DNA of 64,000 nucleotides, from the IMG/VR virus record IMGVR_UViG_3300031088_000740. The stretch is one strand, 5' to 3'. Position numbers and translations under genes: made by a program. The stretch's first letter is position 1. The number at the start of each line of letters is the position of its first letter. The stretch is from an uncultured virus (IMG/VR IMGVR_UViG_3300031088_000740). Taxonomy: Duplodnaviria; Heunggongvirae; Uroviricota; Caudoviricetes. A model generated the notes under the pieces. The model searched no databases, was not told the DNA's origin, and was given only the letters and a program-made list of their open reading frames with translations. Positions 4,703 through 52,083 of this stretch are shown piece by piece.

Positions 4703-5377
4703 CTAGTCAAGTTCGAGGGCATTCCAAAGAACGTCATGCAGATTGGTGTCTGGTTCCTCTGCGAGAAATTCAAGTAGCGCTTCTGGTCCACCAGCAGATT
4801 CGATCTCTTCAGCCACATTGACCCATGACTTGATGGAATCGGGATCTTCCACAGTAATGGTGTTGGACCAGTACTCTTTGCCGTCTTCTACCGGGTCAGG
4901 TGCGATGTCAAAACCATTGAGTGACATTGCCTCTTTGAGGTCATCGCGGCGGTCTGCGATGTTTGCACGAATCTCAGAGAGTGTTTCCTCGGTAGGGTTG
5001 GACTCACCCTGTTCTGCCGCGATGATGTGCGCAACATCGACGTTGCCAAAACCAACGGTGATCTCTAGACCGAAAGTACCCTGTGTCACCGTGACATCGG
5101 GGTTGCCTCCCCGAGGGAATAACAAGCGTGAATTATGCTTATCGAGAGTGATGGACATTCCATCAGCACCTTCAGCTTCTTGGACAGGATTGCCTTTGCC
5201 CATAGCTCGGATGATGTCTCCTGCACTAAAGTTGTCAGCGGCGGACCCGTCTACAGAAAGCGAGATAGAGGCAGGTACGCGGTTGTTAGCACCACTATCG
5301 GCATCGATCTTCTTGTGAACAGTGGTGAGCTTGCCGTTCTTATCGACAATCGGGGTGGAAACAGTTGGGTTGGACAT
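4703..5377 (-). CDS. DKNGK-tagged acidic protein #1
   Basis: Start ATG 5377 after aaaggag; MSNPTVSTPIVDKNGKLTTVHKK. Confidence 0.8.
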   Translation of the reverse strand: MSNPTVSTPIVDKNGKLTTVHKKIDADSGANNRVPASISLSVDGSAADNFSAGDIIRAMGKGNPVQEAEGADGMSITLDKHNSRLLFPRGGNPDVTVTQGTFGLEITVGFGNVDVAHIIAAEQGESNPTEETLSEIRANIADRRDDLKEAMSLNGFDIAPDPVEDGKEYWSNTITVEDPDSIKSWVNVAEEIESAGGPEALLEFLAEEPDTNLHDVLWNALELD

Positions 5378-5394
5378 TGTTCTCCTTTGGGTCA

Positions 5395-5416
5395 ATAGTA
5401 CCAGCGGTCGATGACA
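5395..5416 (-). promoter_or_regulatory. TGTC-N12-TAnnnT promoter motif
   Basis: TGTC atcgaccgctgg TACTAT. Confidence 0.7.
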
Positions 5417-5692
5417 CTAACGTGACAGGACCATCCCGCCAATGCTTCCGATCACGGTATCAGTCTTGATGTGGCGAGGAACACACGAACCGTTATCGAG
5501 AGTCTTGATGAGGAAGTCGCGAAGCGTACTCACCTTCCACTTGCTCGGCTGACTAAACTCCGAATAGAGAACCATCTTCTCTTTGGTGGTGTCATCTTCA
5601 ACTATCTTGACCACCTGAACAAGACCACCGTCTACTTCTCTGTAGACAACAGACTCCTGCACTTCAACAAGTGAGCCATCGCTGCTGTTCAT
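5417..5692 (-). CDS. small protein, DUF1653-like
   Basis: VYREVDGGLVQVV...TKEKMVLYSE...WKVSTLRDFL resembles the DUF1653 pattern. Confidence 0.45.
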   Translation of the reverse strand: MNSSDGSLVEVQESVVYREVDGGLVQVVKIVEDDTTKEKMVLYSEFSQPSKWKVSTLRDFLIKTLDNGSCVPRHIKTDTVIGSIGGMVLSR

Positions 5693-5731
5693 ACATCAAG
5701 ACTACAGGGAGCCACCGATATTCAGCGCCCA

Positions 5732-6205
5732 TTACTCCTTGCGAGGGAAAATGAGGAACTCGTCGCGACTGACAAGACCGTAGTGCGTCGTTAGAGCACT
5801 CACCTTATCGGGGTTCCTAGAAGCTAGATGATTGATCTCGGCAAGAACTTCACCTACAGATGCAGGAAGGAACTCGACGATCTTCATGGGGCTTCCAAGA
5901 GCACCATATTCAACAGTGACTAGGGCAATGGGTTCTTCGTTGTTGATGACTTGCTCAGGAGAAAGAGTCATGACATTGACCTGCTGGATCTTTCCTCCGC
6001 CGTCCTGGTTCTTCAACCACTCGACGTAGACCTTATCTGAGGTGTCGAGTTCCTTGTGTGAAGTGGGGCGGGCGTACTTCACCTCTACTGATACCACCTG
6101 AGTGACTGCAACCCTATCTCGACCTGTATTGGGGTCAGTGTGGACATAACAAATCCATCGACCACGGAGGTTAGGTGATTCCGATGTAAGCTGCTCGTCA
6201 GCCAT
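5732..6205 (-). CDS. hypothetical protein
   Basis: 157-aa ORF with RBS gaaggg. Confidence 0.6.
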   Translation of the reverse strand: MADEQLTSESPNLRGRWICYVHTDPNTGRDRVAVTQVVSVEVKYARPTSHKELDTSDKVYVEWLKNQDGGGKIQQVNVMTLSPEQVINNEEPIALVTVEYGALGSPMKIVEFLPASVGEVLAEINHLASRNPDKVSALTTHYGLVSRDEFLIFPRKE

Positions 6206-6369
6206 TCAAAGGCACCCTTCTGGTATGTACGCGCTTATGCACCCGCACATCATACAACTTTTAGGCTAGAAGTGAAGGGGTCTTGCTGTGGTTTACGGCT
6301 ATCGCTCAGCATAGCGGCTATGAGGAATAATTGGTACGGATTCTCTGAAAATCGTATTTTGAGAGTGAA

Positions 6370-6417: not shown

Positions 6418-7329
6418 CTATCGCTTGAAGTAGTAGCCCTTGATGGAGTCATAGCCACCAGCGGAACCACCAGCATAAGCCACCCAATCAACATAAGAGC
6501 CTAGACCCTTATAGCTTTCTTGATAGTCCAGATATGCTCTGACCTCACCGCCGTCAGGTGTCTCGGTGTCATCTTCTAGACCTCCACCAAGACCAATCTC
6601 TGACTGAGTGTAATTGGTTGCCGCTTTGTCCCAATCAATGTAATCACCAATGGCTTGCATACCCGAACGCGAGTCTAGACCGCTACCGTCATCGTCTATG
6701 TCACCATATTCTTGCTCAAACATGAATTCACCAAGTTCATCAGCGCCTCTGAACTTGCCGTAGTACTTCGACTCAGCGATAGGGACGATCTCGCTCACCG
6801 GTTCGCCTCCATTGAGAGCATGGTAAGCAGCGTAGACTTCGAGACTGTGGCGTGTTCTGTCAATGAACTGGGAGCCGTATTCGGTGTCTTGTAGCCCCTT
6901 GAGTTCATCAAGCGCATCTTCATAGGAATGCGACTGGATGTATACCTGCTCATCAATAGGTAGGTTGAGGTGCTCTTCATTGACCCAGTAACCAATGTGA
7001 CCATTAGAAAGACCTCCATAGATGATGTCGTCTTCAGTCAACTCGGGGTTCTTTGAAAGGACTACTTCGAGGTGGTCAATGCTGTCTTCCTTGGAGCTAC
7101 CCAAGAAGAATTCGTCGAACAAGATTTCGTCTTCGGGGTTTTTGTCGATGAAGCTCTCCTTAGCTACGTCGTAACTAGGATCAGTAGCAATGCGAGATGC
7201 CTTCTTCGCAGCACTTTTGGGCTTTGCATTAGCCACAACGCGGAGGGCTACAGGCTCTCCTTGCTTGACATGACGGGTAACGAGATGACCATTTTTGTCT
7301 GTTCGGACTTCGGGTTGGAGGTTAGACAC
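6418..7329 (-). CDS. DKNGK-tagged protein #2 with ArdA-like antirestriction C-terminal region
   Basis: N-term EVRTDKNGHLVTRHVK; very acidic; YYGKF...ELGEFMFEQ, YIDWDKAA, YVDWVAYA...GYYF resemble ArdA Y(I/F)DYEA(F/Y) motifs. Confidence 0.65.
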   Translation of the reverse strand: MSNLQPEVRTDKNGHLVTRHVKQGEPVALRVVANAKPKSAAKKASRIATDPSYDVAKESFIDKNPEDEILFDEFFLGSSKEDSIDHLEVVLSKNPELTEDDIIYGGLSNGHIGYWVNEEHLNLPIDEQVYIQSHSYEDALDELKGLQDTEYGSQFIDRTRHSLEVYAAYHALNGGEPVSEIVPIAESKYYGKFRGADELGEFMFEQEYGDIDDDGSGLDSRSGMQAIGDYIDWDKAATNYTQSEIGLGGGLEDDTETPDGGEVRAYLDYQESYKGLGSYVDWVAYAGGSAGGYDSIKGYYFKR

Positions 7330-7359: not shown

Positions 7360-7381
7360 ATTGTAGCAATCATATCCGACA
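7360..7381 (-). promoter_or_regulatory. TGTC-N12-TAnnnT promoter motif
   Basis: TGTC ggatatgattgc TACAAT. Confidence 0.7.
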
Positions 7382-7421
7382 TAGCTTGGATCGGTCAGGT
7401 GGTTGTGGGTAGACTGTGCTC

Positions 7422-11316: not shown

Positions 11317-11354
11317 GACACAACAGTAGCGGTATCTGTCACGATAATCAAGCA

Positions 11355-11468
11355 AACCAAAAACCGCCCCTGCTAGGCAGAAGGCGGTTAGAAGTTTGAG
11401 AGGGAAAGCAGAAGAGCAAGTTAATTTATCCGAAAAGTTATAGAAGGAAGCTCTTCAAAAGCCCTACA
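11355..11468 (-). ncRNA. candidate stand-alone small RNA downstream of the TerD-domain gene
   Basis: Own promoter TAGACA-17-TATATT (11474-11502); AGGG..GAAGAGC/GCTCTTC..CCCT stem; terminator 11359-11389; no ORF. Confidence 0.6.
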
Positions 11469-11527: not shown

Positions 11528-11570
11528 AAAACGAAGGTGCTGTACCTATGCGATACAGCACCTTCGTTTT
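11528..11570 (-). terminator. intrinsic terminator of the TerD-domain gene
   Basis: Perfect 17-bp inverted repeat aaaacgaaggtgctgta / tacagcaccttcgtttt. Confidence 0.8.
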
Positions 11571-24299: not shown

Positions 24300-24764
24300 A
24301 TGGCTGAGATCTTCGACATGGACGAAGCTCCTACGGACGGCACCGTCATTGAAGTTCTCATCGACGACTATTGGGTACGCGCGTTCTGGAGCGACCATGC
24401 AGACGACATGTCCCCTTATGGTGCTCCCGGCTGGGCGGAAGAAGAAAGCCGCATGATCATGGACCCCGAAGCATGGCGAGAGCCTGAGGTGGAAGGGTAC
24501 GTAGATGAGTACGCGGAGGCAGAGGCTCGTTACCAGGAACACGAAAACGACAAGAAGCACGAGCGCCAGCTTGCCAACCAGATCAAGCGTGAGAAGACCG
24601 CTGAGAATCGACGAAACCTTGAATCAACTTACCGCCAGATGACAGGTCGAGATGTCAGCGGTGAGAAGATCAAGATGGTTGACCTCCGCAAGATGGTTCA
24701 GCAGGAATCACACAAACGGAGCATGGAGGCTCTGGGCAAGCTCATGCAGGGATTTGGTCTTTAG
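24300..24764 (+). CDS. hypothetical protein (APTDGT, DUF551-like N-terminus)
   Basis: MDEAPTDGTVIEVL; promoter TTGACA-17-TAGATT upstream. Confidence 0.65.
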   Translation: MAEIFDMDEAPTDGTVIEVLIDDYWVRAFWSDHADDMSPYGAPGWAEEESRMIMDPEAWREPEVEGYVDEYAEAEARYQEHENDKKHERQLANQIKREKTAENRRNLESTYRQMTGRDVSGEKIKMVDLRKMVQQESHKRSMEALGKLMQGFGL

Positions 24765-25750
24765 CTTGCGAATCCATCCATGATCTTGGAGTTGTGAACG
24801 TCATCAACAGCGTCTCGCACAGATGCAAACGTCGTTGTGCTTCTGATGCTAGCTAGTTCACCATCGGAAAGCTTGTTGGTCTCGACAGCAAGAAGCTGGA
24901 CTGACTCATCGCCCGAGTTCCTGGCAACCTCAGCAATAGCATCTGATGGCGCATAGGAGTTAGCGATAAGCTGACGCTGAGCGACCACTCTGAGTCCGCT
25001 TGCACCGTCAATCTTTCCCGAGAAGGCAATGGCTCGGAGATCGAATTCAGCATTCTGCCCACCAGCTAGCTCGGTAAGTTCAAATACCTCTTCGTGCGAA
25101 AGCTCTGCAATCTCGTCCTTGCTCTGTAGCTCTTGACCTAGAACCCTCCACATGTTGCGAGCGTTGAAAGTGCCGGGGTCGGACTCGTTGTATAGTGTTG
25201 TCGCCTCGGTCGTATCCCAGTAGTCAATTACAGCATCAGGTGACATTGGCTCGCTTGAAGACATAACCCAGGCTGGTCGTGCAACCAAATCATCAGTCCA
25301 CTCAACTTCATCAGCCTTGTACTCACGCATCAAGAATGCCTCGATGTCATCGGCATGATTCTGTACGTAGTCGTACTTCTCCTGATCGTTCATCGACTCC
25401 ATTGCGGGTACATAATCAGTGAGCCATCTGGTCGAATCTACTTCGACACCGTAACCAGTAGCGTTGTAGACGATCTCTCCCTCTTCGTCACCTTCGTTGG
25501 TGTAGATGTTTCCGCTAGTGATGTCCTGGTCATAACCAACACCATCATCCTCTCCAAAAGTCCACTCATCGCCTAGTCCGAGAACGATAGGCTCTCTTGC
25601 GAGGACTTCATGACCGCTGTACTTGCTACTTGCTCTGGCAATAGGGATAAGAGCAGATCGAACCGGCTCGTTAGCACCCTCAGGGTTCTTCCACACCTGG
25701 GTCATCTTGCCGTTCTTGTCAACAATTGGGGTCTTGATCTTGCCAGCCAC
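24761..25750 (-). CDS. DKNGK-tagged acidic protein #3 with C-terminal helical repeats
   Basis: MAGKIKTPIVDKNGKMTQVWKNP. Confidence 0.8.
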   Translation of the reverse strand: MAGKIKTPIVDKNGKMTQVWKNPEGANEPVRSALIPIARASSKYSGHEVLAREPIVLGLGDEWTFGEDDGVGYDQDITSGNIYTNEGDEEGEIVYNATGYGVEVDSTRWLTDYVPAMESMNDQEKYDYVQNHADDIEAFLMREYKADEVEWTDDLVARPAWVMSSSEPMSPDAVIDYWDTTEATTLYNESDPGTFNARNMWRVLGQELQSKDEIAELSHEEVFELTELAGGQNAEFDLRAIAFSGKIDGASGLRVVAQRQLIANSYAPSDAIAEVARNSGDESVQLLAVETNKLSDGELASIRSTTTFASVRDAVDDVHNSKIMDGFAS

Positions 25751-25774: not shown

Positions 25775-25796
25775 AGAGTACAACCATGCGGAGACA
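25775..25796 (-). promoter_or_regulatory. TGTC-N12-TAnnnT promoter motif
   Basis: TGTC tccgcatggttg TACTCT. Confidence 0.65.
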
Positions 25797-28047: not shown

Positions 28048-28842
28048 CTACAGTGCGGTTTTGTTGACGACCTCGAAGTGATGTGGGTTAGCAAGTAGGC
28101 TTATAGAGCCGACAGATTCGTACATGTTTACGTACCTCGTACAGCCGAAGAGATCGTACTTCTCGAATCTGTCTCGTCGCCAGTCTTTGACCGATTCGGG
28201 CGCACTATCGTTATCGTCATCAGCGAGAGACTCAGAGATGCTCATGGTGGGCAACAATGCCACCTCGTAAAGATAGAACTGTGCTGGTGCTAGACCTTCA
28301 CTTTCCCGTTCTCTTTTGAGGTCTTCCATACGAACGGTAGCGGCTTCCAGTGTTCCTAGATGAGTCAGCGGAGTGTCCTCCCCTTGGTGACCCTTCAACC
28401 TCTCATCCCAATCTTCGCGGATAGTTGTGTGGAACCATGTCGTATTGAGTACAGCTTCGTCGTCAAGGAATTCAAGAGCTTCCGGAAGAATGGATACCCC
28501 GGTTAGACCTTCGAGAGTTCCTGAACCACAGCCAGGGCACTCCCATGCCTGTGCACCTGAATTGATGAGTTCCTTATCGAAGTGATATTGGCACTGGAAG
28601 CAGTACGCTCCGGACTTACCCTCGGGGGCAATGGACCAAGGCGTGCCTTCATGGAAGAGCATCTCGCACTTCTTTCGGATCTCTTCGTAGAATACCTTCT
28701 CGTGGTTGTCTTCATTCACAGGGAAAGAAGGAGCACCAGGCGGAAGTCTCGTAATCATGGCGGGGTTGGGGTTCTTCCACACGCTTGTATGCTTGCCATT
28801 TTTGTCAATGACGGATGTGAGTACAGCCTTGCTCGATACCAC
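28048..28842 (-). CDS. DKNGK-tagged protein #4: zinc ribbon plus putative ADP-ribosyltransferase-like domain
   Basis: SVIDKNGKHTSVWKNP; CFQC..CPGC; WFHTT, THLGTLEAA..R, YLYEV, RYVNMYESVGSISL. Confidence 0.55.
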   Translation of the reverse strand: MVSSKAVLTSVIDKNGKHTSVWKNPNPAMITRLPPGAPSFPVNEDNHEKVFYEEIRKKCEMLFHEGTPWSIAPEGKSGAYCFQCQYHFDKELINSGAQAWECPGCGSGTLEGLTGVSILPEALEFLDDEAVLNTTWFHTTIREDWDERLKGHQGEDTPLTHLGTLEAATVRMEDLKRERESEGLAPAQFYLYEVALLPTMSISESLADDDNDSAPESVKDWRRDRFEKYDLFGCTRYVNMYESVGSISLLANPHHFEVVNKTAL

Positions 28843-28863: not shown

Positions 28864-28885
28864 ATTCTAACGCAAGCTCATGACA
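28864..28885 (-). promoter_or_regulatory. TGTC-N12-TAnnnT promoter motif
   Basis: TGTC atgagcttgcgt TAGAAT. Confidence 0.7.
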
Positions 28886-29973: not shown

Positions 29974-30692
29974 CAAAGGAAAAGGCGATTGTGGGCGGCG
30001 TACTTGCCGCTGCTGCTGGAATCATCTGGCTGTCCTTCTCGGGTCGGCTTATCTTGTACGTACACCCCGACTACGTAATCTTCACCACCATCATGGCTAT
30101 CGTTGCGATGGTGGGAGTCATTGGCTACTACGCATTCACCAGTAAGCCTGAAACCAAGGCGCATTGGACCCTGGTAGCCGCTGTGAGCGCCTTAGCCCTC
30201 GCTATTGCAGTAGTTCCCGCGTCAAGCCTTACAGTGGCTCATACGGACACTGAGGCTACAGCCAAGACAGATACTGTCGAGAAGCCGCAGATGACGCTCA
30301 TTGATATCCCTGCAACAGCAACAGTTGCCGAAACTGACCTCTACAAGATTCAGGCTCGTTTTGCCAACAAGCAGATGGAGTCTATTGATGGTCAGTACGT
30401 CAAGCTCAGCGCGTACCTCTATCAGTCCAAAGAGCAGCCTTCATGGAGCTACCTCACGCGAAGTCTTGTTAGCTGCTGCGTAGTCGATGCTCGTGATTTC
30501 AACCTGCTCACTACTACGACCGAGGACTCAAAGGCTCTCAATAACTCATGGGTAGAGGTAAGCGGAGAACTCGTATCAGGTGACGAGGCGGGAACTTGGT
30601 ATTACATCAAGCTCGCATCGGTCACCAAGATAGATGAGCCGCAGGAGCCTTACCTTTACGTGAACTTCACGGACACAAACTGGAACTTTTAG
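29970..30692 (+). CDS. DUF1980/TIGR03943 (YcgQ-like) permease partner
   Basis: LYVHPDY, VSCCVVDA, WVEVSG, EPQEPYLY; ATGA overlap. Confidence 0.85.
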   Translation: MTKEKAIVGGVLAAAAGIIWLSFSGRLILYVHPDYVIFTTIMAIVAMVGVIGYYAFTSKPETKAHWTLVAAVSALALAIAVVPASSLTVAHTDTEATAKTDTVEKPQMTLIDIPATATVAETDLYKIQARFANKQMESIDGQYVKLSAYLYQSKEQPSWSYLTRSLVSCCVVDARDFNLLTTTTEDSKALNNSWVEVSGELVSGDEAGTWYYIKLASVTKIDEPQEPYLYVNFTDTNWNF

Positions 30693-31471
30693 TCGTTCTC
30701 GTCATCGAAGTAGACATCACGCAAGTTGCCGTTACGGGCAGTGAGCGGAAGGTTCTTTGAGACCCATTCGAGAGCCTCCTTCAATGGCTTGCTTTCGTCT
30801 CCAAAGCGGTAGTAGTTACGCCTACTGCTCTGAATAACCGCAGCGGTACCATCCTCTGCGTTGACTTCGAGGTCGTACCATGATGAGTCGTTGTTGCCCG
30901 TCAAAAGACTGAACTTTACCTCTTCACGACCATCAGCTACTGTGCGCGCAAACGTCAACATGCCCTCAACAAGCTCATCATCGATTGGCTCTTTATGATC
31001 GAAGGAGAGCGTAGCAATGGGTAGCTGATGCTCCATGTCATAGGTGTCTACCCTGAATTTCTTGTGCACTCCTGATACCCACTTCTGCTCAATCTCACTT
31101 GCAAGTCTGTTTCTCCTTGCAAGGCTATTGAGATCCTTCAACTCTTCAATGGGCGAATCAGCGCTGTACTTATCCGCTTCGAGTTCAAGCTTCATGGTGA
31201 TGAAGTCGTCGTACTGCTTGTAGAGAGCCTTCCTCTCATCAGCAATCTTGGTTGACTGTGCGTCAAGCTCACTCATGCGAGACTCGACAGAATCGATGTT
31301 CTCGTTGAGGTCAGACAAAAGCTCAGCCTCTTCAGCCGCAATTGACTTCTTGGGCTGAGATACCGCACTGACACGATTCTTACCAGTGGAGGTATCGCCT
31401 ACCTTCTTGTGGACGGTAGTGCGCTTTCCGTTCTTGTCAACGATTGGAGTCGGAGTGGTGTTGTCAGCCAT
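30689..31471 (-). CDS. DKNGK-tagged acidic protein #5 with coiled coil
   Basis: MADNTTPTPIVDKNGKRTTVHKK; second gene of an operon with #6. Confidence 0.8.
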   Translation of the reverse strand: MADNTTPTPIVDKNGKRTTVHKKVGDTSTGKNRVSAVSQPKKSIAAEEAELLSDLNENIDSVESRMSELDAQSTKIADERKALYKQYDDFITMKLELEADKYSADSPIEELKDLNSLARRNRLASEIEQKWVSGVHKKFRVDTYDMEHQLPIATLSFDHKEPIDDELVEGMLTFARTVADGREEVKFSLLTGNNDSSWYDLEVNAEDGTAAVIQSSRRNYYRFGDESKPLKEALEWVSKNLPLTARNGNLRDVYFDDEND

Positions 31472-31479
31472 GATTGTCC

Positions 31480-32142
31480 TTACTGAACGTGTTCGTTTGC
31501 GCGGTATGCAGCGATGATGTGAATGAATGAGTAAGCCGGTGCTTCCCAATGTGCATGGTTGCCCTCTGGAATCATGTCACGAAGAGCCGAAGGCATTTCA
31601 ATGTACCTGTGTTCGTCAACCTTTCCGCCCATCATCTGTTCCAGTTCAGCCTTTGCACTCTGCTCTGCTTCGTCGGAAAGCTGGCGATTCACGAATACGT
31701 AGTCAGCGCCATAGCTCACGCTTACGCCGTCAACAGTTTGTCCCTCAACGTATTCTTTCAGGTCGATCATGCCGTTGAAGGTCGCGCCAGCGTAAGCTTT
31801 GGCGACATGCTCGACATCGCTTGAATGAGGACCATCGGTGTACCTAACGTTGATGGATGCTCCACCGGAGTACTTGCTGGTGTTCACATAGAACTTGGTG
31901 TCAGGGAAGTCCTTCTTGAATGCATCCTTGAGAGATTCACGCATAAGGGTAGCCGTCTCAGTCGGAGACAGGCGGAGAGTCTTTTTGACCTTGCCATCGT
32001 TGGTCGTGTACTCGGAAACATGACCGAGCGACTTGACACGAGACTTGCCCTTAGCGGCATCTTCAGCCAACTTATGAACGGTAGTGACTTTACCGTTCTT
32101 GTCGATTACCTGTTCTGGACGGGTACGTGCGCTTGCAGCCAT
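31480..32142 (-). CDS. DKNGK-tagged protein #6 with LPD29-like polyvalent-protein domain
   Basis: QVIDKNGKVTTVHK; ETATLMRESLK..FPDTKFYV..SKYSGGASINVRYTDGP...FNGMID...YGADYVFVNR. Confidence 0.7.
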   Translation of the reverse strand: MAASARTRPEQVIDKNGKVTTVHKLAEDAAKGKSRVKSLGHVSEYTTNDGKVKKTLRLSPTETATLMRESLKDAFKKDFPDTKFYVNTSKYSGGASINVRYTDGPHSSDVEHVAKAYAGATFNGMIDLKEYVEGQTVDGVSVSYGADYVFVNRQLSDEAEQSAKAELEQMMGGKVDEHRYIEMPSALRDMIPEGNHAHWEAPAYSFIHIIAAYRANEHVQ

Positions 32143-32175: not shown

Positions 32176-32197
32176 ATTGTAGCTGAAGTCGCTGACA
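32176..32197 (-). promoter_or_regulatory. TGTC-N12-TAnnnT promoter motif
   Basis: TGTC agcgacttcagc TACAAT. Confidence 0.7.
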
Positions 32198-32709: not shown

Positions 32710-33453
32710 CTACCTCTCCAAGAAAGGCTTATCGCTCTCATTAGCTGGTCCGTTAGGGTATTCAAAGCGGACAACTGCGTCGGGGAATACACCAGGGAAC
32801 CTATTCGCCCATTGGTCTTCTACATCGAGATAATCGAGCACCTCGATCTGATTGTCAGCCAGTGGTCGGAAGGCGCTCTTGGCATCTGAAGCAAGTCCAG
32901 AATACGGAATCTCTTCACCGTTCTTGTACACCTTCATTCCCCTGTCAGAGAACGTCTGCATGTAGGTATCGGTGCGTGTTCTTCCTGTCGCGATGTCGCG
33001 CATACTACGAGGAAGTGGTGAATCAAAAGACTGGCTCACCTGCACCGAGTACTGTCTCCGAGGATCACCATCTAGCCCACTGAAACCATGCCATTCGGTC
33101 ACAGTATCAACTTTTGCTCCGCCAGCTTGAAGCTTGTCCTTGACTCGGTACCCTCTAATCTCCCGGTCATCTTTGACCGATCCCCAGTCAACAAGCGCTG
33201 CTCTTTCATCCAGTTGAAATTCAGTGAGATGGCTGCTTTCAGAATCCAGAAGGTACGCCTCATACTCATCATCGGAAATCAGGTCTACCATGTTGACGGG
33301 GTTCATAGATGCAGGAGGTGGTGCCCATAGCTCATCTCCATTACCAGACCTAGCCGGTGCAGAGATATAGCCTGCGGGGTTGACCATACGGAACGTTGAT
33401 ACGCCGTTCTTGTCAACGATAGGCTGCTTGATGAGATGGCTGTTGCTGGGCAT
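32710..33453 (-). CDS. DKNGK-tagged protein #7
   Basis: IKQPIVDKNGVSTFRMVNP; AGTC-N12-TAAAAT at 33460-33481, 6 nt before the ATG. Confidence 0.75.
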   Translation of the reverse strand: MPSNSHLIKQPIVDKNGVSTFRMVNPAGYISAPARSGNGDELWAPPPASMNPVNMVDLISDDEYEAYLLDSESSHLTEFQLDERAALVDWGSVKDDREIRGYRVKDKLQAGGAKVDTVTEWHGFSGLDGDPRRQYSVQVSQSFDSPLPRSMRDIATGRTRTDTYMQTFSDRGMKVYKNGEEIPYSGLASDAKSAFRPLADNQIEVLDYLDVEDQWANRFPGVFPDAVVRFEYPNGPANESDKPFLER

Positions 33454-34940: not shown

Positions 34941-35843
34941 ATGAATTCTCAGAGAGTGACTAATGCAGTTTACCTATCCGCTCTGGGTGATGGATGGGGA
35001 TACACCACAGAGTTCACAAGTTTCGGAAGCATCCCGCGTGAGGTTCCCATTCCGAACCCAGTAAGGATCTCTGATGACACTCAGATGGCTATTGCTGTCA
35101 TTCAGGGCATCGAAAAATCACGCTCCACTACCGATAGCGAACTGCTAGCAATCGGTGATGCTTTTCTCATTTGGGCAGATGACGTAGACAACAACAGAGC
35201 ACCAGGCAATACCTGCATGTCTGCTCTTTCTCAGTTCGGTAGAACACGTGAACTTGCTAACCCATTCTCAGGCACCATTCTCGCCTCTAAAGGCTGCGGC
35301 GCGAACATGCGCGCGGGCTGGCTTGGCTTCTTGGATAGACCCATTGAGGACATCGAGCAGCTAGCATCAGACCAGGCGAAGATTACACATGGGCACCCTA
35401 CTGCTCTGGAGTCAAGCGCTCTCACTACTCACGCCGTATGGGCTATCGCACATGACGAAGTAGAGCACGGAGGACTTGTTGAGTACCTTCTGGGTCGTGC
35501 GGAAGACAGTGCGGTCATTGAGGCTCTTGTTCATGCCCGCGACACAGCCGCCGATTATGTCCGCAATCTTGACAACGACCCATGCTGGACTATTGGCGAA
35601 GGATGGATCGCAGAAGAAGCTCTTGCGTTGGCAGCTAAGGTCTTCGATGTGTACGACAACCCCGCTGAAGGTCTTCTTCGGTCGGTAAGAACAGGTGGAG
35701 ATTCAGACTCTATCGCGTGCATCGCAGGCTCGTTTATGGGTGCATCCTTGGATACTGACTGGCGCGAACTGTTTGAGGGCGATATCCGCTTCGAACCACG
35801 ATACGAAAGGGAGCTAGCGGACGTTCTGTCTGTTCTCGCTTAG
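34941..35843 (+). CDS. ADP-ribosylglycohydrolase (DraG/ARH family)
   Basis: GDGWGY..EF, SDDTQM, RAPGNTC, SKGCGANMR, THGHP, GGDSDSIACIAG. Confidence 0.92.
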   Translation: MNSQRVTNAVYLSALGDGWGYTTEFTSFGSIPREVPIPNPVRISDDTQMAIAVIQGIEKSRSTTDSELLAIGDAFLIWADDVDNNRAPGNTCMSALSQFGRTRELANPFSGTILASKGCGANMRAGWLGFLDRPIEDIEQLASDQAKITHGHPTALESSALTTHAVWAIAHDEVEHGGLVEYLLGRAEDSAVIEALVHARDTAADYVRNLDNDPCWTIGEGWIAEEALALAAKVFDVYDNPAEGLLRSVRTGGDSDSIACIAGSFMGASLDTDWRELFEGDIRFEPRYERELADVLSVLA

Positions 35844-36310
35844 CGAGCGAATCTACCCTCTGCGCGGTCATCAAGCTCATGCATGATTGACTCAGCATAG
35901 GAGAGCATCGCCCTCTCGTCATTAGACAAAGCCTCCTTGGCAAAGTGCATACCGGCGAAGTAGCTTCGAAGGCGCTCAAACGAGACATTGGCTGGCGGGA
36001 TGTCAGTTCCCGGCTCGGTGCCAGGGTTGTCGGCATAGACAAAGAGTGACTGAACACGCTTCTTTGTGGTGTGTTCAAGCTCCTTCTTCCAACGGTGCGT
36101 GGGCTGGAAGTGGTTCACGGCATGACGGATATCGTCAAAGGTCATATCGGCTGGCTGAAGTCTCTTGGTGTCTACCTCTGTAGCTGCGTTGGTAGGCACC
36201 GCAACCGCCGCCAAGCGATTCGATTCGCCAGCGGTCTGAATCTTCTTGTTGACGTGGGTAGCCTTACCGTTCTTGTCAACGATTGGCGTTCTAACTGTGT
36301 TGCCTGACAT
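35840..36310 (-). CDS. DKNGK-tagged protein #8
   Basis: Start ATG 36310 after gaaagg; MSGNTVRTPIVDKNGKATHVNKK. Confidence 0.8.
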   Translation of the reverse strand: MSGNTVRTPIVDKNGKATHVNKKIQTAGESNRLAAVAVPTNAATEVDTKRLQPADMTFDDIRHAVNHFQPTHRWKKELEHTTKKRVQSLFVYADNPGTEPGTDIPPANVSFERLRSYFAGMHFAKEALSNDERAMLSYAESIMHELDDRAEGRFAR

Positions 36311-36332: not shown

Positions 36333-36354
36333 ATCTTATCAGCAGCCGTAGACA
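36333..36354 (-). promoter_or_regulatory. TGTC-N12-TAnnnT promoter motif
   Basis: TGTC tacggctgctga TAAGAT. Confidence 0.7.
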
Positions 36355-45751: not shown

Positions 45752-45773
45752 TGTCGCTTGCACCAGATACAAT
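45752..45773 (+). promoter_or_regulatory. TGTC-N12-TAnnnT promoter motif
   Basis: TGTC gcttgcaccaga TACAAT. Confidence 0.7.
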
Positions 45774-45794: not shown

Positions 45795-46646
45795 ATGTCC
45801 AAGAACCGCGTCCCCATTGTCGATAAGAACGGCAAGTCCACACACGTCTGGAAGTCAGACGACAACGGCAGACACTCCATTGAGCGAATTGCTAGTACCG
45901 AAGTCACCAGTGCAGCAAGCTCAGCCAGTGGAGACCCCGTATCAGATCTCATGGATGACCTATGGACTGACACCCAGGCTATTAGGGTTCTCTCGACATC
46001 TCTTGCCGGTATCGATGAGATGCGCAAGAACAACCAGGATGCCACCCCGTTGCTTGAAGCGGTTATGAACACTGGCGAGCAGAGCGGAACTGAGATGCTC
46101 ATGGAAGCTGCTTTCTCAGCACAGGACAACATCGAGAAGCTCGACGCTGAACTGACCGCTATCGAGCAGCAGAACCCTTACGACCTCGACGAAGACGACC
46201 GAGAGTCTTACGACGTAGGTGTCGGTGAACTACGTCTACAGAAGTCCCAGATCAAAGAGCACCTCGACAAGGCTGGTGTACTTAGCGGAGCGAGCATCCT
46301 CTCTCCCCGTATCACTCGTACCTGGGAAGACGGCATCGCTGCCGCCAAGGAAATCTACGGCGAACCGACCATCGAGCAAGACCTACCTAATGGCGGTTCC
46401 ACTCTTCGTTACGGCGACCCAGATGCAGATGCTGGTTGGCACGAGGTTACGGTCAACAGACTTGGTAACGTCACCGCGTTCAACACCCCCGAGGGTTCAT
46501 TCAGCGCAAGCAGTATCGACTTCCCCGTTGCTACGCCAACTGGTGACGTAGAGCTTCGAGGCGAGACAGAAGGCAAGCTCACCATGCAGGACGTTCAGCG
46601 TATCGTCTTCATCAGCACCGGTAACCGAGACACATGGACTAGCTAA
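45795..46646 (+). CDS. DKNGK-tagged acidic protein #9
   Basis: MSKNRVPIVDKNGKSTHVWKS. Confidence 0.8.
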   Translation: MSKNRVPIVDKNGKSTHVWKSDDNGRHSIERIASTEVTSAASSASGDPVSDLMDDLWTDTQAIRVLSTSLAGIDEMRKNNQDATPLLEAVMNTGEQSGTEMLMEAAFSAQDNIEKLDAELTAIEQQNPYDLDEDDRESYDVGVGELRLQKSQIKEHLDKAGVLSGASILSPRITRTWEDGIAAAKEIYGEPTIEQDLPNGGSTLRYGDPDADAGWHEVTVNRLGNVTAFNTPEGSFSASSIDFPVATPTGDVELRGETEGKLTMQDVQRIVFISTGNRDTWTS

Positions 46647-49527: not shown

Positions 49528-50217
49528 ATGCCAAAGCGTATCGAAGAACCGAGAATCGAAGGCGACAAGTTTGTTGCTGTAGGGTTCATATCCAACACAG
49601 ATATCCCCAGCGGCGACTTCTACGAATCAGGCAAGATGCCGGTCATACAGTCGTTCATGTCAGATGACCTGTGGGTGGTACCAAGCCAGTCTTGGATAGC
49701 CGATGACGCTCGGAAGCTTGATCGTTCGACATACAACGTCACAGCTTTCAACACAAGCGAGTTCATCCTTATCGAGGAAGGACAGACTGTGCAGGCAGCA
49801 GGTGAGTTCTGGCTTGACTTGCTCAGAAACTCCACTCCTGAACTCATGGAACAGTTCGCTGACTGGAAGGTCAACGTCGGAGAGAACGCATTCCGGTATC
49901 ACATCGCCTCATACGATGAACAGACGGCTTTCAGTACCGAGCTAGCGACCTATCTGGAAAAGATCCTTGTCGCTGCCCTTCGCGCTCATGACGAGAAAAC
50001 TAGCGCACTAACGTATCACCTCTACGAGACGGCAGTGCCTACCTCCGGGGTTCCATTGGAGCATAGCTATCTTGTGCGTGGCGCGTTTACCGAGGCTATG
50101 GATAGCTCAGGGACGGCAGCATTGGAGTCGTTTGCCAAGCGTGACAAGATCTACCGAAACCACAAGAAGTTCGCTATCGCGCTTGATTCATTCCGCTCTG
50201 CAAACGGCTTGGCTTAG
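49528..50217 (+). CDS. hypothetical protein
   Basis: 229-aa ORF; TAGTCT lies 6 nt before the ATG. Confidence 0.6.
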   Translation: MPKRIEEPRIEGDKFVAVGFISNTDIPSGDFYESGKMPVIQSFMSDDLWVVPSQSWIADDARKLDRSTYNVTAFNTSEFILIEEGQTVQAAGEFWLDLLRNSTPELMEQFADWKVNVGENAFRYHIASYDEQTAFSTELATYLEKILVAALRAHDEKTSALTYHLYETAVPTSGVPLEHSYLVRGAFTEAMDSSGTAALESFAKRDKIYRNHKKFAIALDSFRSANGLA

Positions 50218-50897
50218 AAAGTACCAGTACCGCCGCTGCCATCGAAGCTACTTCCGCTACTGTCGGAATAGCTACTCCCGCTTGCAATAGTGGAGATGGT
50301 TGTGGCGGCAACTACTGCCCCAAGTAGACCGGAATCATAGCTGCTACCACTCGATGATGTTCCGGTGCTTCTGCTCCTACGAATCTGATTGCGCACAAGA
50401 GGGGATGCCTTGGCGGCTCGCTTGCCCACCTTGCTTGTCTTGCTCGTGAGTGAAGGAAGCTTTTTCTTGTAAACCTTGATGGTGTTCTTCTCGGTCAACT
50501 CGATGGCGTAGTGCACACGGTCAACATCAAAGCTCGTTGTGCCAACAGCGGCAAGCTCACGAAGATTGCTTGAAGGCACAGATACCTCAGCCACCGACTC
50601 GACATGCTCGCGTAGCTCACCATTGAGCCAGGTCGTGAAACGAACTACGTTGTCGCGTTCGATCTTCTTGTTGATGACACCCAATCGAAACGCGAGTGTA
50701 ATTCCGACCACTCCCAGCGCGATGCCAACAAGAAAAGCCCATAGCGCTGCATCTCGTATAACGCCACCAAAAAAGAACAGAATCACTGAAGCTACGATAA
50801 CCGCCACCGAGATAGCAAGAACAAAGCCAATTCCATGCTGATCTTTGGGCTGATTGGTGACAGGAATTGTAACCGACTTGTGGTTGTTGCGTGACAT
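50214..50897 (-). CDS. two-TM membrane protein with Ser/Gly-rich tail
   Basis: TM pair; ends SSGSSFDGSGGTGTF. Confidence 0.65.
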   Translation of the reverse strand: MSRNNHKSVTIPVTNQPKDQHGIGFVLAISVAVIVASVILFFFGGVIRDAALWAFLVGIALGVVGITLAFRLGVINKKIERDNVVRFTTWLNGELREHVESVAEVSVPSSNLRELAAVGTTSFDVDRVHYAIELTEKNTIKVYKKKLPSLTSKTSKVGKRAAKASPLVRNQIRRSRSTGTSSSGSSYDSGLLGAVVAATTISTIASGSSYSDSSGSSFDGSGGTGTF

Positions 50898-50899
50898 GG

Positions 50900-51211
50900 T
50901 TAGCCCCTTTCGACTGGGTAGAAGTCAAAGATGAAGTCATCAGAATCTAGTCCTGAATGGGAAAGAGCGTTATTGAACGCTTCAAGCTCATTGTCGGGGG
51001 AGCTATTGAGTAGGTCAACAAACTTCATGCTCTCTTCGACAATAGCCAACACACTCCAAGATGAGGGCGCGGCAGCACGCCAGAAGTATGGCTCGTTCTG
51101 GTACGTGGCGCATGACTGTGGGAATTCAGTGCAGTGGCAGGCATCTTCATGCCACTCAGCAAGAAGGCGCGACTCAGCGTAGAGTGCAACTAGCTCATTG
51201 AATTCAATCAT
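50900..51211 (-). CDS. small hypothetical protein
   Basis: WHEDACHC...C. Confidence 0.5.
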   Translation of the reverse strand: MIEFNELVALYAESRLLAEWHEDACHCTEFPQSCATYQNEPYFWRAAAPSSWSVLAIVEESMKFVDLLNSSPDNELEAFNNALSHSGLDSDDFIFDFYPVERG

Positions 51212-51297
51212 GCATCCACCTTATCACTATCGGAACTAGAGAACAAGCATCGACATCGGTGGGTAGCTGTAGACTTGACCCAACGAAAGGTTCAGCA

Positions 51298-52083
51298 ATG
51301 TCCAACCTCACACCAACGCCCATCGTTGATAAGAACGGCAAGAAGACCACGGTTCACAAGAAGCCGCTCGATACCGCCTTGGAGTCACGCGTACCTACCA
51401 GCACCTCTTCCTCTGCAAAGATGGAGGCTATTCAGAATGTCGTGGCGCAGATTCAGAGAACGAATGGTCGATATGGTAGGAATGACCAGTCAGACTCTCT
51501 CGTAGAGGCAGCAAAGCTTATCGTGAGTTTGCCTGCTGCAACTGACTGGGAAGAAGTTGCAGCAGAGACGCTAGCTGATGCAAAGAAGCTTGGATACAAC
51601 AAGGCTTCATGGAACACGAGGGTTCGCGATGCGAAGCAGGCATACTCTGAGTTTGTACCAACAGAAGGTGTGAATCTTCTTGAGCTAGATGACAAGGATA
51701 CGTCTTTGCCTATTCAGGACAGGTACAAGGTCTTCATCGCAAAGGGTGTTGCAAAGGCAGGCACACCAATGAACCGTGAGCTAGAGAATGACATCTACGG
51801 ATGGACCGACCATAAGGCTGCTGAGCACTTCGATGGCAGGCAGGGTAACGCCTGCGAAATCGCGGAGGTCACAAGTGTTGTTGAGGACAAGTGGTCTACC
51901 TTTGGTGACACTTTCAGCGGTAACGATGATTCTCATGGAGTCCAGTGCGAAGTACAGTGCGCCTGTGGATGGTACAAAGGACCAGTCCGCGAAGAAGGAA
52001 CTCTGGAAGAGATGATCGGAACCATCAGAAGGGATATCTCCAGCGAAGATGTCTTTGATGGAAAGACATCACGAGTCTGGTAA
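51298..52083 (+). CDS. DKNGK-tagged protein #10 with Cys/His C-terminal domain
   Basis: Start ATG 51298 after gaaagg; MSNLTPTPIVDKNGKKTTVHKK; H..C...CEVQCACG; CATC-N12-TAGACT at 51254-51275. Confidence 0.8.
   Translation: MSNLTPTPIVDKNGKKTTVHKKPLDTALESRVPTSTSSSAKMEAIQNVVAQIQRTNGRYGRNDQSDSLVEAAKLIVSLPAATDWEEVAAETLADAKKLGYNKASWNTRVRDAKQAYSEFVPTEGVNLLELDDKDTSLPIQDRYKVFIAKGVAKAGTPMNRELENDIYGWTDHKAAEHFDGRQGNACEIAEVTSVVEDKWSTFGDTFSGNDDSHGVQCEVQCACGWYKGPVREEGTLEEMIGTIRRDISSEDVFDGKTSRVW

What the first reader, a model, noticed from the sequence alone, without database searches (positions are those of the whole stretch)
4703..52083. Ten unrelated proteins share an N-terminal DKNGK tag: candidate targeting signal for a cargo-delivery system
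Seen: ORFs starting at 5377, 7329, 25750, 28842, 31471, 32142, 33453, 36310 (all minus), 45795 and 51298 (plus) carry a short motif within their first ~25 aa: PIVDKNGKLTTVHKK, VRTDKNGHLVTRHVK, PIVDKNGKMTQVWKN, SVIDKNGKHTSVWKN, PIVDKNGKRTTVHKK, QVIDKNGKVTTVHKL, PIVDKNGVSTFRMVN, PIVDKNGKATHVNKK, PIVDKNGKSTHVWKS, PIVDKNGKKTTVHKK. It is usually followed by an R(V/L/I) and an A/S/P/T linker, then a different, mostly acidic domain. The genes are scattered, not tandem copies. Known: T4 internal proteins share a short N-terminal capsid-targeting sequence, and ArdA, LPD and ART domains occur in proteins delivered with invading DNA. Inference: the motif is a beta-hairpin address label that loads a swappable library of counter-defence or host-takeover proteins into the virion or transfer machine.
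Basis: partly seen in the sequence, partly recalled or inferred. Interest (0 to 1): 0.92.

Follow-up and report, generated by a model that had tools for sequence, protein, structure and literature searches.

The report
Shared N-terminal hairpin tag on cargo proteins
Ten unrelated proteins in this stretch, and hundreds more in related giant mobile DNA elements of plant-associated actinobacteria, begin with the same short hairpin-forming tag, which most likely labels them for export together with the element's DNA.

Summary
Exactly ten ORFs in the window start with M-x(8-12)-(P)IVDKNGKxTTVHKK...R, followed by an Ala/Ser/Pro-rich linker and unrelated acidic bodies. There are 10 DKNG in six frames against a mean of 0.23 in shuffles.

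- **Family size:** a profile of the tag finds 911 protein clusters in 1.84 billion representatives. In 149 of the best 150 the tag sits at the N-terminus. It was found only in metagenomic contigs, none in 185,579 species genomes.
- **Selection and fold:** synonymous codons vary freely, so selection acts on the peptide. AlphaFold gives a confident beta-hairpin followed by a disordered linker.
- **Regulation:** tagged genes share a promoter-like motif, TGTC-N12-TAnnnT (7 of 10 tagged against 1 of 93 untagged window genes).
- **Cargo:** the few recognisable bodies are LPD29, ArdC-N with a metallopeptidase, SprT-like, a ParB-like GmrSD_N domain, a near-threshold ArdA and a CCA-adding enzyme.
- **Carrier element:** the one fully readable relative (203 kb) has VirB4-like and coupling-protein-like ATPases, a type IV pilus cluster, 64 tRNAs and CRISPR-Cas. 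No capsid or terminase was found. Close variants of the window's tagged proteins lie on contigs of the same lengths (805 kb, 413 kb) as those ATPases.

Best reading: an address tag for effectors exported by the element's transfer machine. This is inferred, not shown. Virion packaging and intracellular tethering remain rivals.

The parts
4703..5377 (-). Tagged gene, 224 aa. The tag is roughly the first 35 codons (MSNPTVSTPIVDKNGKLTTVHKK...R). The body is acidic with no family.
   Evidence: Ortholog P0074 (58% identity in the body) also carries the tag.
6418..7329 (-). Tagged gene, 303 aa, with the variant tag SNLQPEVRTDKNGHLVTRHVK.
   Evidence: E 1.6e-10. The same tag subtype sits on the CCA-adding enzyme of the related element.
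24761..25750 (-). Tagged gene, 329 aa.
   Evidence: Close variants lie on contigs of 637,428, 805,269 and 412,594 bp.
28048..28842 (-). Tagged gene, 264 aa. The body has Cys-x2-Cys pairs, possibly a zinc ribbon (read from the sequence).
   Evidence: Ortholog P0146 (35% identity) is tagged.
30689..31471 (-). Tagged gene, 260 aa. It starts 8 nt after the stop of the preceding tagged gene, so the two are probably co-transcribed.
31480..32142 (-). Tagged gene, 220 aa. The body is an LPD29 domain (residues 60-156).
   Evidence: PF18847, 63.2 bits against cut-off 27; phrog_15549.
32710..33453 (-). Tagged gene, 247 aa, with a divergent tag (PIVDKNGVSTFRMVN).
   Evidence: E 6.3e-12.
35840..36310 (-). 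Tagged gene, 156 aa.
   Evidence: Orthologs P0097 and P0051 are tagged.
45795..46646 (+). Tagged gene, 283 aa.
51298..52083 (+). Tagged gene, 261 aa. The model shows hairpin 5-10/16-21, a disordered stretch 23-36, then a folded body with no clear structural match.
5395..5416 (-). Promoter-like motif TGTC-N12-TAnnnT, 17 nt before the start codon.
7360..7381 (-). Promoter-like motif, 30 nt before the start codon.
25775..25796 (-). Promoter-like motif, 24 nt before the start codon.
28864..28885 (-). Promoter-like motif, 21 nt before the start codon.
32176..32197 (-). Promoter-like motif, 33 nt before the start of the LPD29 gene. It probably also serves 30689-31471.
36333..36354 (-). Promoter-like motif, 22 nt before the start codon.
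45752..45773 (+). Promoter-like motif, 21 nt before the start codon.

Best explanation
The first 35 or so residues form a modular address tag. It consists of a two-stranded beta-hairpin (PTPIVD / TTVHKK around a K-N-G turn), a short basic stretch ending in a conserved Arg, and then a disordered Ala/Ser/Pro-rich linker. A lineage of giant (0.2 to at least 0.8 Mb) plasmid-like mobile elements of plant-associated Actinobacteria attaches this tag to a large, fast-turning-over set of otherwise unrelated, mostly acidic effector proteins. These genes are expressed as a regulon from a shared promoter. The proposed mechanism is that the exposed hairpin docks on a receptor of the element's own transfer apparatus, by edge-to-edge beta pairing plus the basic residues. 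The receptor is most likely the conjugative type IV secretion system, through its coupling protein or an adaptor. The flexible linker would let the attached protein be fed into the channel, so that anti-restriction and host-takeover proteins reach the recipient cell with the DNA. In effect this is an 'unbundled' version of polyvalent proteins, with each effector carrying its own header. Shown here: the tag's existence, its N-terminal position, selection on the peptide, the hairpin prediction, the shared promoter motif, the cargo families, and the presence of tags and T4SS-like genes in the same elements. Inferred: that the tag is read by a machine, which machine reads it, and that the proteins leave the cell.
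For: **Position.** In 149 of the best 150 of 911 profile hits the tag starts within residues 1-17. All 18 matches in the 203-kb relative are N-terminal. In 170 unique tagged ORFs the start codon lies 7-13 codons before the Asp, most often 10.

**Selection on the peptide.** Among identical residues in the 17-residue core, 52% of codon pairs differ, and nucleotide identity is 64%. Every conserved residue uses all its synonymous codons.

**Modularity.** The ten window bodies are unrelated. 8 of the 10 have diverged orthologs or close variants (35-100% identity) that keep the tag.

**Structure.** The hairpin has pLDDT 85-93, followed by a low-confidence linker.

**Regulon.** TGTC-N11-13-TAnnnT lies upstream of 60 of 170 tagged genes. 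In the window this is 7 of 10 tagged against 1 of 93 untagged genes (Fisher p 5e-8). In the relative it is 8 of 15 against 10 of 220 (p 1e-6).

**Cargo.** Bodies over the curated cut-off are LPD29, ArdC-N, GmrSD_N and DUF7007, and GmrSD_N, LPD29 and SprT-like on database relatives. A CCA-adding enzyme is also tagged. ArdC and TraC1 are known to be transferred as proteins during conjugation, and 'header' domains are proposed to couple polyvalent proteins to delivery machines (PMC5512222, passages read).

**Machine.** The relative encodes an AAA_10 ATPase of 920 aa (47.6 bits against cut-off 27.5; Atlas look-alikes are AAA_10/DUF87 proteins of about 830 aa from Actinomycetota and Bacillota, score 0.98). 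Next to it lies an 11-TM protein of 1297 aa. A 921-aa P-loop membrane protein has Atlas look-alikes named type IV secretory system conjugative DNA transfer proteins (0.98). By tblastn that protein matches 4 records in 72,556 plasmids. All four are actinobacterial megaplasmids, and three of the matched genes are annotated as that family. It matches none of 50,697 phage records.

**No virion genes.** No capsid, portal or terminase was found in the relative by PHROGs, Pfam, NCBIfam or six-frame searches.

**Co-residence.** Close variants of four window tagged proteins lie on contigs of 805,269 and 412,594 bp. The coupling-protein cluster has members on contigs of exactly these lengths, and on the 231,541-bp contig that holds tags L087 and L109. 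The VirB4-like cluster also has a member on the 805,269-bp contig.
Against: No receptor is identified, and there are no experimental data. Known T4SS substrate signals are C-terminal or internal (recalled knowledge), so an N-terminal one would be unprecedented.

The T4SS assignment rests on one Pfam hit, on language-model look-alikes, and on 23-25% identity to annotated genes. The candidate relaxase is below cut-off (Replic_Relax 20.9 against 25.3 bits).

The relative is classed as a provirus in IMG/VR and has phage-like content. This includes 64 tRNAs plus a tmRNA, several HNH endonucleases, NAD-salvage and nucleotide-metabolism genes, and a DnaE closest to Streptomyces phages. One window protein hits a PHROG named 'virion structural protein' (18860-19534, E 7e-26).

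Only 203 kb of one element and 64 kb of another could be read in full, so capsid genes could lie elsewhere in elements of 640-805 kb. A shared promoter fits any co-regulated set. In the Pfam scan of 150 tagged proteins, 142 matched no family, so 'counter-defence' is extrapolated from a few.
Confidence: 0.4

Rival explanations
1. Virion-packaging signal. The elements are huge phages, and the tag loads the proteins into the capsid before or with the DNA, like the T4 capsid-targeting sequence, so that they are ejected into the next host.
For: T4 internal proteins and Alt share a 10-20-residue N-terminal targeting sequence that suffices to load foreign proteins (PMC5694885, passages read). The relative is listed in a virus collection as a provirus. 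It has a 64-tRNA array with a tmRNA, HNH endonucleases, RNR, thymidylate synthase, NAD salvage and RtcB, and a DnaE nearest to Streptomyces phage genes (37% identity). Window proteins hit PHROGs, including one 'virion structural protein' family. Contig sizes of 413-805 kb overlap those recalled for huge phages.
Against: No capsid, portal, terminase, protease, sheath or tube family was found in 203 kb of the relative or in the window. None was found among 150 representatives, taken from 222 neighbour clusters, of genes next to tags in metagenomic loci. VirB4-like and coupling-protein-like genes are conserved in the lineage and match plasmids, not phages. The tag has no conserved Glu-type cleavage motif like T4's; its conserved residue is Arg.
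Confidence: 0.2
2. Intracellular tethering module. The hairpin binds one common partner inside the cell, and this concentrates many effectors at the same place without any export. The partner could be DNA or the nucleoid, the element's replication or partition machinery, RNA polymerase, the ribosome or a chaperone.
For: The tag is basic (4-9 Lys+Arg in the first 40 residues against 1-5 acidic) and sits on acidic bodies. A single hairpin cannot be a stable domain on its own and must dock on something. One protein (P0006, 770 aa) has three hairpin copies, two of them internal, as expected for a binding unit rather than a strictly terminal signal. A tagged CCA-adding enzyme could equally well work in the producing cell.
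Against: A generic binding module would be expected at either end or inside proteins, yet it is N-terminal in 149 of 150. No known nucleic-acid-binding family matches even at E 10. The recognisable cargo families are those associated with delivery during DNA entry.
Confidence: 0.2
3. Turnover or expression element. The N-terminus is a degron that gives all these proteins a short, timed life, or it is a translation-initiation context kept for efficient (partly leaderless) expression.
For: 14 of the 60 promoter-bearing tagged genes have the -10 box 6-7 nt before the start codon, so those mRNAs would be leaderless and the first codons could matter for initiation. The set is co-regulated.
Against: Conservation is at the amino-acid level, not the nucleotide level, which argues against an mRNA element. 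The conserved part extends over about 35 residues with a predicted defined hairpin, more than known N-degrons need (recalled knowledge). Most tagged genes have ordinary leaders with ribosome-binding sites.
Confidence: 0.07
4. Cassette-shuffling scar. Promoter plus tag is simply the conserved 5' end of a gene cassette that spreads by recombination, and the peptide has no function of its own.
For: Promoter and tag travel together. Cargo sets differ between elements: none of the 10 window bodies has a homolog in the 203-kb relative. Paralogous tags cross-match in assemblies of other samples (short pieces only).
Against: Nucleotide identity in the core is only 56-64%, with free synonymous change. 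That is too low for homologous recombination and is the signature of purifying selection on the peptide. Orthologs at 35-58% body identity keep the tag.
Confidence: 0.05

Closest known systems
T4 capsid-targeting sequence (CTS) of internal proteins IPI-III, Alt, gp67 and gp68
   Same: A short N-terminal sequence shared by otherwise unrelated proteins. It is sufficient to address them to a delivery container, and the cargo includes anti-restriction and host-takeover proteins (PMC5694885, passages read).
   Different: The CTS is 10-20 residues and is removed by the prohead protease. Here the tag is about 35 residues with a predicted hairpin and a conserved Arg rather than a Glu-type cleavage site. 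No capsid, scaffold or prohead protease gene was found in the sequences held. There is no sequence similarity.
N-terminal signal or packaging domains of eCIS payloads (Photorhabdus PVC, Serratia Afp)
   Same: N-terminal leaders on diverse payloads load them into an injection machine. Seen here only in the search listing and abstracts of PMC10097599 and bioRxiv 10.1101/2023.11.13.566157.
   Different: No sheath, tube or baseplate family was found in the window or the relative. Those leaders are described as disordered and weakly conserved (recalled knowledge), whereas this one has an invariant D-K-N-G turn.
Polyvalent proteins and their 'header' domains (ArdC-N, MuF) in conjugative elements and phages
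   Same: The effector domain repertoire is the same (LPD29, ArdC-N with MPTase-PolyVal, ParB-like). So is the idea that an N-terminal header couples effectors to the conjugation or packaging apparatus (PMC5512222, passages read).
   Different: Polyvalent proteins string 2-15 domains on one polypeptide. Here each effector is a separate small protein with its own copy of a new, much smaller header, and its own promoter.
Type IV secretion substrate signals (C-terminal charged tails, XVIPCD domains, relaxase TS motifs)
   Same: They mark proteins for recognition by the coupling protein of a T4SS. The elements here encode coupling-protein-like and VirB4-like ATPases.
   Different: The known signals are C-terminal or internal (recalled; listing of PMC8740702). 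This tag is N-terminal and unrelated in sequence. No Gram-positive conjugative effector signal is known to me.

Membership tests
T4-type capsid-targeting sequence | Short N-terminal sequence shared by several unrelated proteins of one element | tested here: met
   10 of 10 window proteins and 149 of the best 150 database hits carry the tag at the N-terminus.
T4-type capsid-targeting sequence | Removed by a prohead protease at a conserved (L/I)-x-E site | tested here: not met
   There is no conserved Glu after the tag; the only conserved residue there is Arg. Cleavage itself cannot be tested here.
T4-type capsid-targeting sequence | The element encodes a capsid, scaffold core and prohead protease | tested here: inconclusive
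   None was found in the window or in the 203-kb relative. However, the elements are 0.4-0.8 Mb and most of their sequence could not be read.
T4SS translocation signal | The element encodes a coupling protein and a VirB4-type ATPase | tested here: met
   AAA_10 is over cut-off. Atlas look-alikes score 0.98 for both proteins. There are weak tblastn matches to annotated T4SS coupling proteins on actinobacterial megaplasmids. The two genes share contig lengths in 7 cases. These are leads, not proof of a working T4SS.
T4SS translocation signal | C-terminal or internal position of the signal | tested here: not met
   The tag is N-terminal.
T4SS translocation signal | Recognition by the coupling protein and transfer to recipients | not testable with these tools
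   This needs mating and translocation assays.
eCIS payload N-terminal signal | Sheath, tube or baseplate genes in the same locus | tested here: not met
   No such family was found among the window's 97 ORFs (10 tagged, 87 others) or the relative's proteins scanned.
Polyvalent proteins (Iyer et al. 2017) | Two to fifteen effector domains on one polypeptide | tested here: not met
   Tagged proteins are 53-770 aa, mostly 150-350, with at most one or two recognised domains.
Polyvalent proteins (Iyer et al. 2017) | Domain repertoire (LPD families, ArdC-N, MPTase, ParB-like) | tested here: met
   LPD29; ArdC-N over cut-off with MPTase-PolyVal below cut-off; GmrSD_N.
Sec or Tat signal peptide | Hydrophobic core of 10 or more residues after a basic N-region | tested here: not met
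   The sequences printed show no hydrophobic run in the first 45 residues. The region is polar and basic.
Any Pfam family for the tag itself | Profile match | tested here: not met
   0 of 10 tags match any Pfam-A model even at E 10. The likeness of the hairpin to YD/Rhs or cell-wall-binding repeat hairpins is my recollection only.

The most novel reading that the evidence does not exclude
The hairpin is the first sequence-defined, N-terminal translocation signal of a Gram-positive conjugative type IV secretion system. It addresses on the order of a thousand effector families (911 clusters at 50% identity) that megaplasmid-like elements of 0.4-0.8 Mb inject into recipient actinobacteria ahead of or with their DNA. 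This would be an effector arsenal on the scale of Legionella's, but used for plasmid establishment, and it would yield a ready-made catalogue of unknown anti-defence proteins.
Probability: 0.3. Interest if true: 0.92.

Novelty: new variant of a known kind. Interest (0 to 1): 0.8.

Why it matters
If the tag is an export label, it gives a simple sequence rule for listing every protein that a whole lineage of giant mobile elements sends into a new host. That list holds 911 clusters, of which 142 of the 150 examined match no known family, and it is a rich hunting ground for new anti-restriction and anti-defence mechanisms.

It would also show that conjugative elements can replace giant polyvalent proteins by many small, separately tagged effectors. 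The portable tag of about 40 residues could be tested for loading foreign proteins.

The carrier elements themselves appear undescribed in the literature I searched. They reach 805 kb and carry T4SS-like and type IV pilus genes, a 64-tRNA array, tmRNA, CRISPR-Cas and their own replication machinery. One public run labelled with a single organism holds a close relative of the window, so bench tests may be possible.

Tried and rejected
- **Complex prediction.** I ran the tag (alignment A6) with the cytoplasmic part of the coupling-protein-like ATPase (residues 330-921, alignment A5). The tool gave no verdict (score 0.00, controls not run). This says nothing either way.
- **Cargo fold.** The model of the 51298 protein (pLDDT 75) gave no Foldseek match at E <= 0.001. 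VIA-align gave only helical-bundle matches with Z below 7. Its function stays unknown.
- **Near-identical DNA and the 51298 protein in GenBank phages and PLSDB plasmids.** No match.
- **Tag in 185,579 species genomes.** 248 pattern matches, 0 relatives.
- **Tag in Curtobacterium megaplasmid pS16**, which holds weak homologs of the two ATPases. None found.
- **Whole genome of the window.** Not held. The large metagenome records could not be searched by handle, so capsid genes on the 0.4-0.8-Mb contigs could not be looked for.
- **Solved-structure sequence search for the two ATPases.** Only generic P-loop and FtsK matches.
- **Rfam on the window and the relative.** Nothing was found in the window or in L032-L035, and only tRNAs in L025-L027 and L029-L031; L028, which holds the main tRNA array and the tmRNA, was not scanned.
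- **First promoter pattern.** With a 17-20 nt spacer it was not enriched (13 of 170). The spacing was mis-measured and was corrected to 11-13 nt.
- **Metatranscriptome run X20.** Short contigs lie on parts of three tagged genes, but DNA carry-over cannot be excluded, so this is no evidence of expression.
- **Loose ends and joints at tag positions in other samples' contigs.** These are short cross-matches of paralogous tags (for example 42 nt of a 53-kb contig), not evidence of cargo swapping.
- **Literature.** 'DKNGK' gives 6 papers, none relevant. 'conserved N-terminal' + 'huge phage' + 'targeting' gives 2, none relevant. The searches found no description of this tag or of these elements.
- **Earlier findings of this scan.** Nothing on this genome or sequence.

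Full report

- A six-frame scan finds DKNG ten times, always 7-13 residues after a start codon of an ORF of 156-329 aa, at the coordinates given.
- Shuffled windows give 0.23 DKNG on average, at most 2 in 100 shuffles.
- A profile HMM of the tag scores the ten ORFs at E 1.4e-18 to 1.6e-10 and the next ORF at 0.24, so nothing was missed.
- D, K, N, G and an Arg about 20 residues downstream are invariant in the ten.
- After residue 42 the proteins show no pairwise similarity (best BLASTP E 1.2).
- The bodies are acidic (Asp+Glu 15-22%). The stretch after the hairpin is Ala/Ser/Pro/Thr-rich.
- Only one body has a Pfam family, LPD29.

**The tag is a large, strictly N-terminal family found so far only in uncultivated elements.**

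- A profile of 28 tags was searched against 1.84 billion representative proteins. It finds 911 clusters at E <= 0.001, of which 40 are at E <= 1e-10.
- In 149 of the best 150 the match starts within the first 17 residues. The exception, P0006 (770 aa), has an N-terminal copy plus two internal hairpin copies.
- The pattern search found no relative in one genome each of 185,579 species.
- In the IMG/VR virus collection it found six places, all on one 202,737-bp contig. A profile search of that whole contig then found 18 matches, all N-terminal.
- In metagenome contigs it found 117 relatives, of which 74 loci were kept.
- In those loci I counted 156 unique tagged ORFs. With a stricter rule, 170 unique tagged starts were found overall, in which the start codon lies 7-13 codons (most often 10) before the Asp.
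- The consensus is M-S-N-L-x-P-T-P-I-V-D-K-N-G-K-x-T-T-V-H-K-K ... R.

**Selection acts on the peptide.** At every conserved residue all synonymous codons are used. Among identical residues in the 17-residue core, 52% of codon pairs differ, and nucleotide identity is only 64%. This excludes an RNA or DNA element as the conserved object and makes a recombination scar unlikely. 8 of the 10 window bodies have orthologs or close variants (35-100% identity) among the database hits, and these keep the tag. None of the ten has a homolog in the 203-kb relative. The label is therefore constant while the cargo set differs between elements.

**Structure.** AlphaFold2 with 140 tags as the alignment predicts a two-stranded hairpin at residues 5-10 and 16-21 (pLDDT 85-93), followed by a low-confidence stretch. 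In the full-length 51298 protein the same hairpin appears, residues 23-36 have pLDDT below 50, and the body folds separately. A lone hairpin on a flexible linker is not a domain. It looks like something made to dock on a partner.

**Shared regulation (new here).** Upstream of tagged genes lies TGTC-N11-13-TAnnnT, with a preferred G two bases before the TA.

| Set | Tagged genes with motif | Untagged genes with motif | Fisher p |
|---|---|---|---|
| All tagged starts | 60 of 170 | n/a | n/a |
| Window | 7 of 10 | 1 of 93 | 5e-8 |
| 203-kb relative | 8 of 15 | 10 of 220 | 1e-6 |

The counts are and the p-values. In 14 of the 60 the TAnnnT box is 6-7 nt from the start codon, implying leaderless mRNAs. 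Most of the rest have leaders of 17-28 nt with a ribosome-binding site. The tagged genes are thus a regulon of separate transcription units.

**What the cargo is.**

- Among 150 tagged database proteins, 142 have no Pfam match. Three match a family over the curated cut-off (GmrSD_N, LPD29, SprT-like), and ArdA is just under it.
- In the 203-kb relative the tag sits on a CCA-adding tRNA nucleotidyltransferase. It also sits on an ArdC-N protein with a sub-threshold MPTase-PolyVal domain, a GmrSD_N protein, a DUF7007 protein, and a protein with a weak papain-like toxin hit.
- These are families that Iyer et al. (2017) describe in polyvalent proteins of phages and conjugative elements. That paper notes that ArdC and TraC1 are transferred as proteins during conjugation, and that N-terminal 'header' domains may couple such proteins to the delivery apparatus (PMC5512222, passages read).
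- No ART domain was found on a tagged protein. A PARP-domain protein next to a tag is untagged.

**What the carrier is.** The window has 50% G+C. 68 of its 87 untagged ORFs scanned lack any Pfam match. It encodes Thg1-like, SpoU, R2K ATP-grasp, Macro, NADAR, ADP-ribosylglycohydrolase, HAD_SAK_2, cREC_REC, an MmeI-type methyltransferase, thioredoxin and others.

The 203-kb relative encodes the following.

- Replication and repair genes: a DnaE polymerase (nearest to Streptomyces phage genes, 37% identity), clamp, clamp loader, GyrA, ligase, RNR, SbcCD and WhiB.
- NAD salvage genes and RtcB.
- A type I-E Cas operon.
- 64 tRNAs plus a tmRNA whose tag ends in ALAA.
- A PilB/PilT/PilC/prepilin-peptidase cluster followed by short proteins with one N-terminal TM segment.
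- A T4SS-like set. It comprises a 920-aa AAA_10 ATPase (Atlas look-alikes are AAA_10/DUF87 ATPases of Actinomycetota and Bacillota), a ParA/MinD-like protein and an 11-TM protein of 1297 aa.
- The set also includes a 921-aa membrane P-loop protein whose look-alikes are type IV secretion coupling proteins. By tblastn that protein matches coupling-protein genes on Arthrobacter, Curtobacterium and Euzebya megaplasmids of 375-572 kb, but nothing in 50,697 phage records.

No capsid, portal or terminase was found by PHROGs, Pfam, NCBIfam or six-frame family searches. None was found among 150 representatives of the genes next to tags in the metagenome loci.

Close variants of four window tagged proteins lie on contigs of 637,428, 805,269 and 412,594 bp. 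The coupling-protein cluster has members on contigs of 805,269, 412,594 and 231,541 bp, the last being a contig that also holds tags. The VirB4-like cluster has a member on the 805,269-bp contig. The two ATPases share contig lengths in seven cases. Judged by these length matches, tags and T4SS-like genes belong to the same elements, which reach at least 0.8 Mb.

Public runs holding near-identical DNA are labelled phyllosphere, plant, straw, leaf-litter and food metagenomes (20 rows, 14 studies, one of them a possible source). One run carries a single-organism label. In that run the 16-kb stretch laid is covered throughout, with most pieces 90-99% alike.

**Mechanism.** I think the hairpin is an address label read by the element's own transfer machinery, most likely the T4SS, so that a co-regulated set of small effectors enters the recipient with the DNA (confidence 0.4). 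The steps shown and the steps inferred are listed under the best explanation.

The main rival is virion packaging in a huge phage (0.2). The phage-like gene content, the IMG/VR label and one 'virion structural protein' PHROG hit in the window keep this reading alive. It could not be excluded because most of each element was unreadable here.

A tethering module that binds one intracellular hub is also possible (0.2). A degron or initiation context (0.07) and a cassette scar (0.05) fit the data poorly.

**Comparison and novelty.** Functionally the nearest things are the T4 capsid-targeting sequence (PMC5694885), eCIS payload leaders (abstracts only) and the header domains of polyvalent proteins. 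The tag is a member of none of these. It has no sequence similarity to them and no Glu-type cleavage site, and there are no eCIS genes nearby. Each protein carries only one or two domains. Its N-terminal position is also unlike known T4SS signals.

The searches I ran found no description of the motif or of these elements. I rate it a new variant of a known kind (cargo address tags). The T4SS reading, if true, would be considerably more novel.

Noticed in passing
window 5395-5416, 7360-7381, 25775-25796, 28864-28885, 32176-32197, 36333-36354 (minus strand); 45752-45773 (plus strand): A promoter-like motif TGTC-N12-TAnnnT, with G two bases before the TA, marks tagged genes almost exclusively. 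The TGTC lies only about 12 nt from the -10 box, unlike a standard -35 spacing. It may therefore be read by a special sigma factor or an activator. 14 of 60 such genes would give leaderless mRNAs.
   Followed up: partly
L028:4899 to L029:1841 (relative contig 64.9-81.8 kb): An array of 64 tRNA genes plus a tmRNA (tag peptide ANASRNDFALAA) within about 17 kb of the 203-kb relative.
   Followed up: no
L026:4574-16979 (relative contig 24.6-37 kb): A complete-looking type IV pilus cluster on the mobile element. It has PilB-like and PilT-like ATPases, a PilC-like platform, a prepilin-peptidase-like membrane protein, short pilin-like proteins and large proteins with one N-terminal TM segment. Two of these genes carry the tagged-gene promoter motif.
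   Followed up: partly
L030:14277 to L031:1760; L037:425-3499; L100:2-3073: CRISPR-Cas genes occur on these elements. There is a type I-E set (Cas3, Cse1, Cas7, Cas5, Cas6e) in the relative, a Cas2-Cas3 fusion in one metagenome locus, and a Cas9-like ORF (RuvC_III plus HNH_4, cut by the locus end) in another.
   Followed up: no
window 4077-4667, 7416-8997, 10858-11355, 13970-14332, 27557-28009, 33717-34250, 34941-35843: The window is dense in RNA-repair and ADP-ribose-processing genes, all untagged: SpoU methylase, Thg1-like, R2K ATP-grasp, Macro, cREC_REC, NADAR, HAD_SAK_2 and ADP-ribosylglycohydrolase. This suggests defence against tRNA-targeting and ADP-ribosylating host systems.
   Followed up: no
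window 15002-17251 (minus strand): A MmeI-family protein of 749 aa with methyltransferase, target-recognition and C-terminal domains. No N-terminal nuclease domain was reported by Pfam, so it may be a modification-only enzyme.
   Followed up: no
window 11569-13908 and 18860-21069 (minus strand): A 779-aa protein matches phrog_33734 over nearly its full length (E 1e-84, unknown function). A 224-aa membrane protein matches phrog_1383, named 'virion structural protein' (E 7e-26). These are the only hints of virion-related genes in the window.
   Followed up: no
protein P0006 (770 aa, from the representative library): The single exception to strict N-terminal position. It has three copies of the hairpin (N-terminus, about residue 190, about residue 430) in one protein, together with other short hairpin-like repeats.
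   Followed up: partly
proteins P0155, P0181, P0184, P0188, P0194, P0205 (contig of 805,269 bp): Elements of this lineage reach at least 805 kb. Other contigs are 654, 637, 536, 495 and 413 kb. Some VirB4-like homologs are about 1350 aa and carry homing-endonuclease or intein families (P0228).
   Followed up: no
runs X1-X20 for window 28000-37000: Near-identical DNA recurs in plant-surface, straw, leaf-litter and food metagenomes of many studies. It also occurs in one run labelled with a single (coded) organism, whose two sister runs lack it. This is as expected for a strain-variable accessory element with a culturable host.
   Followed up: partly
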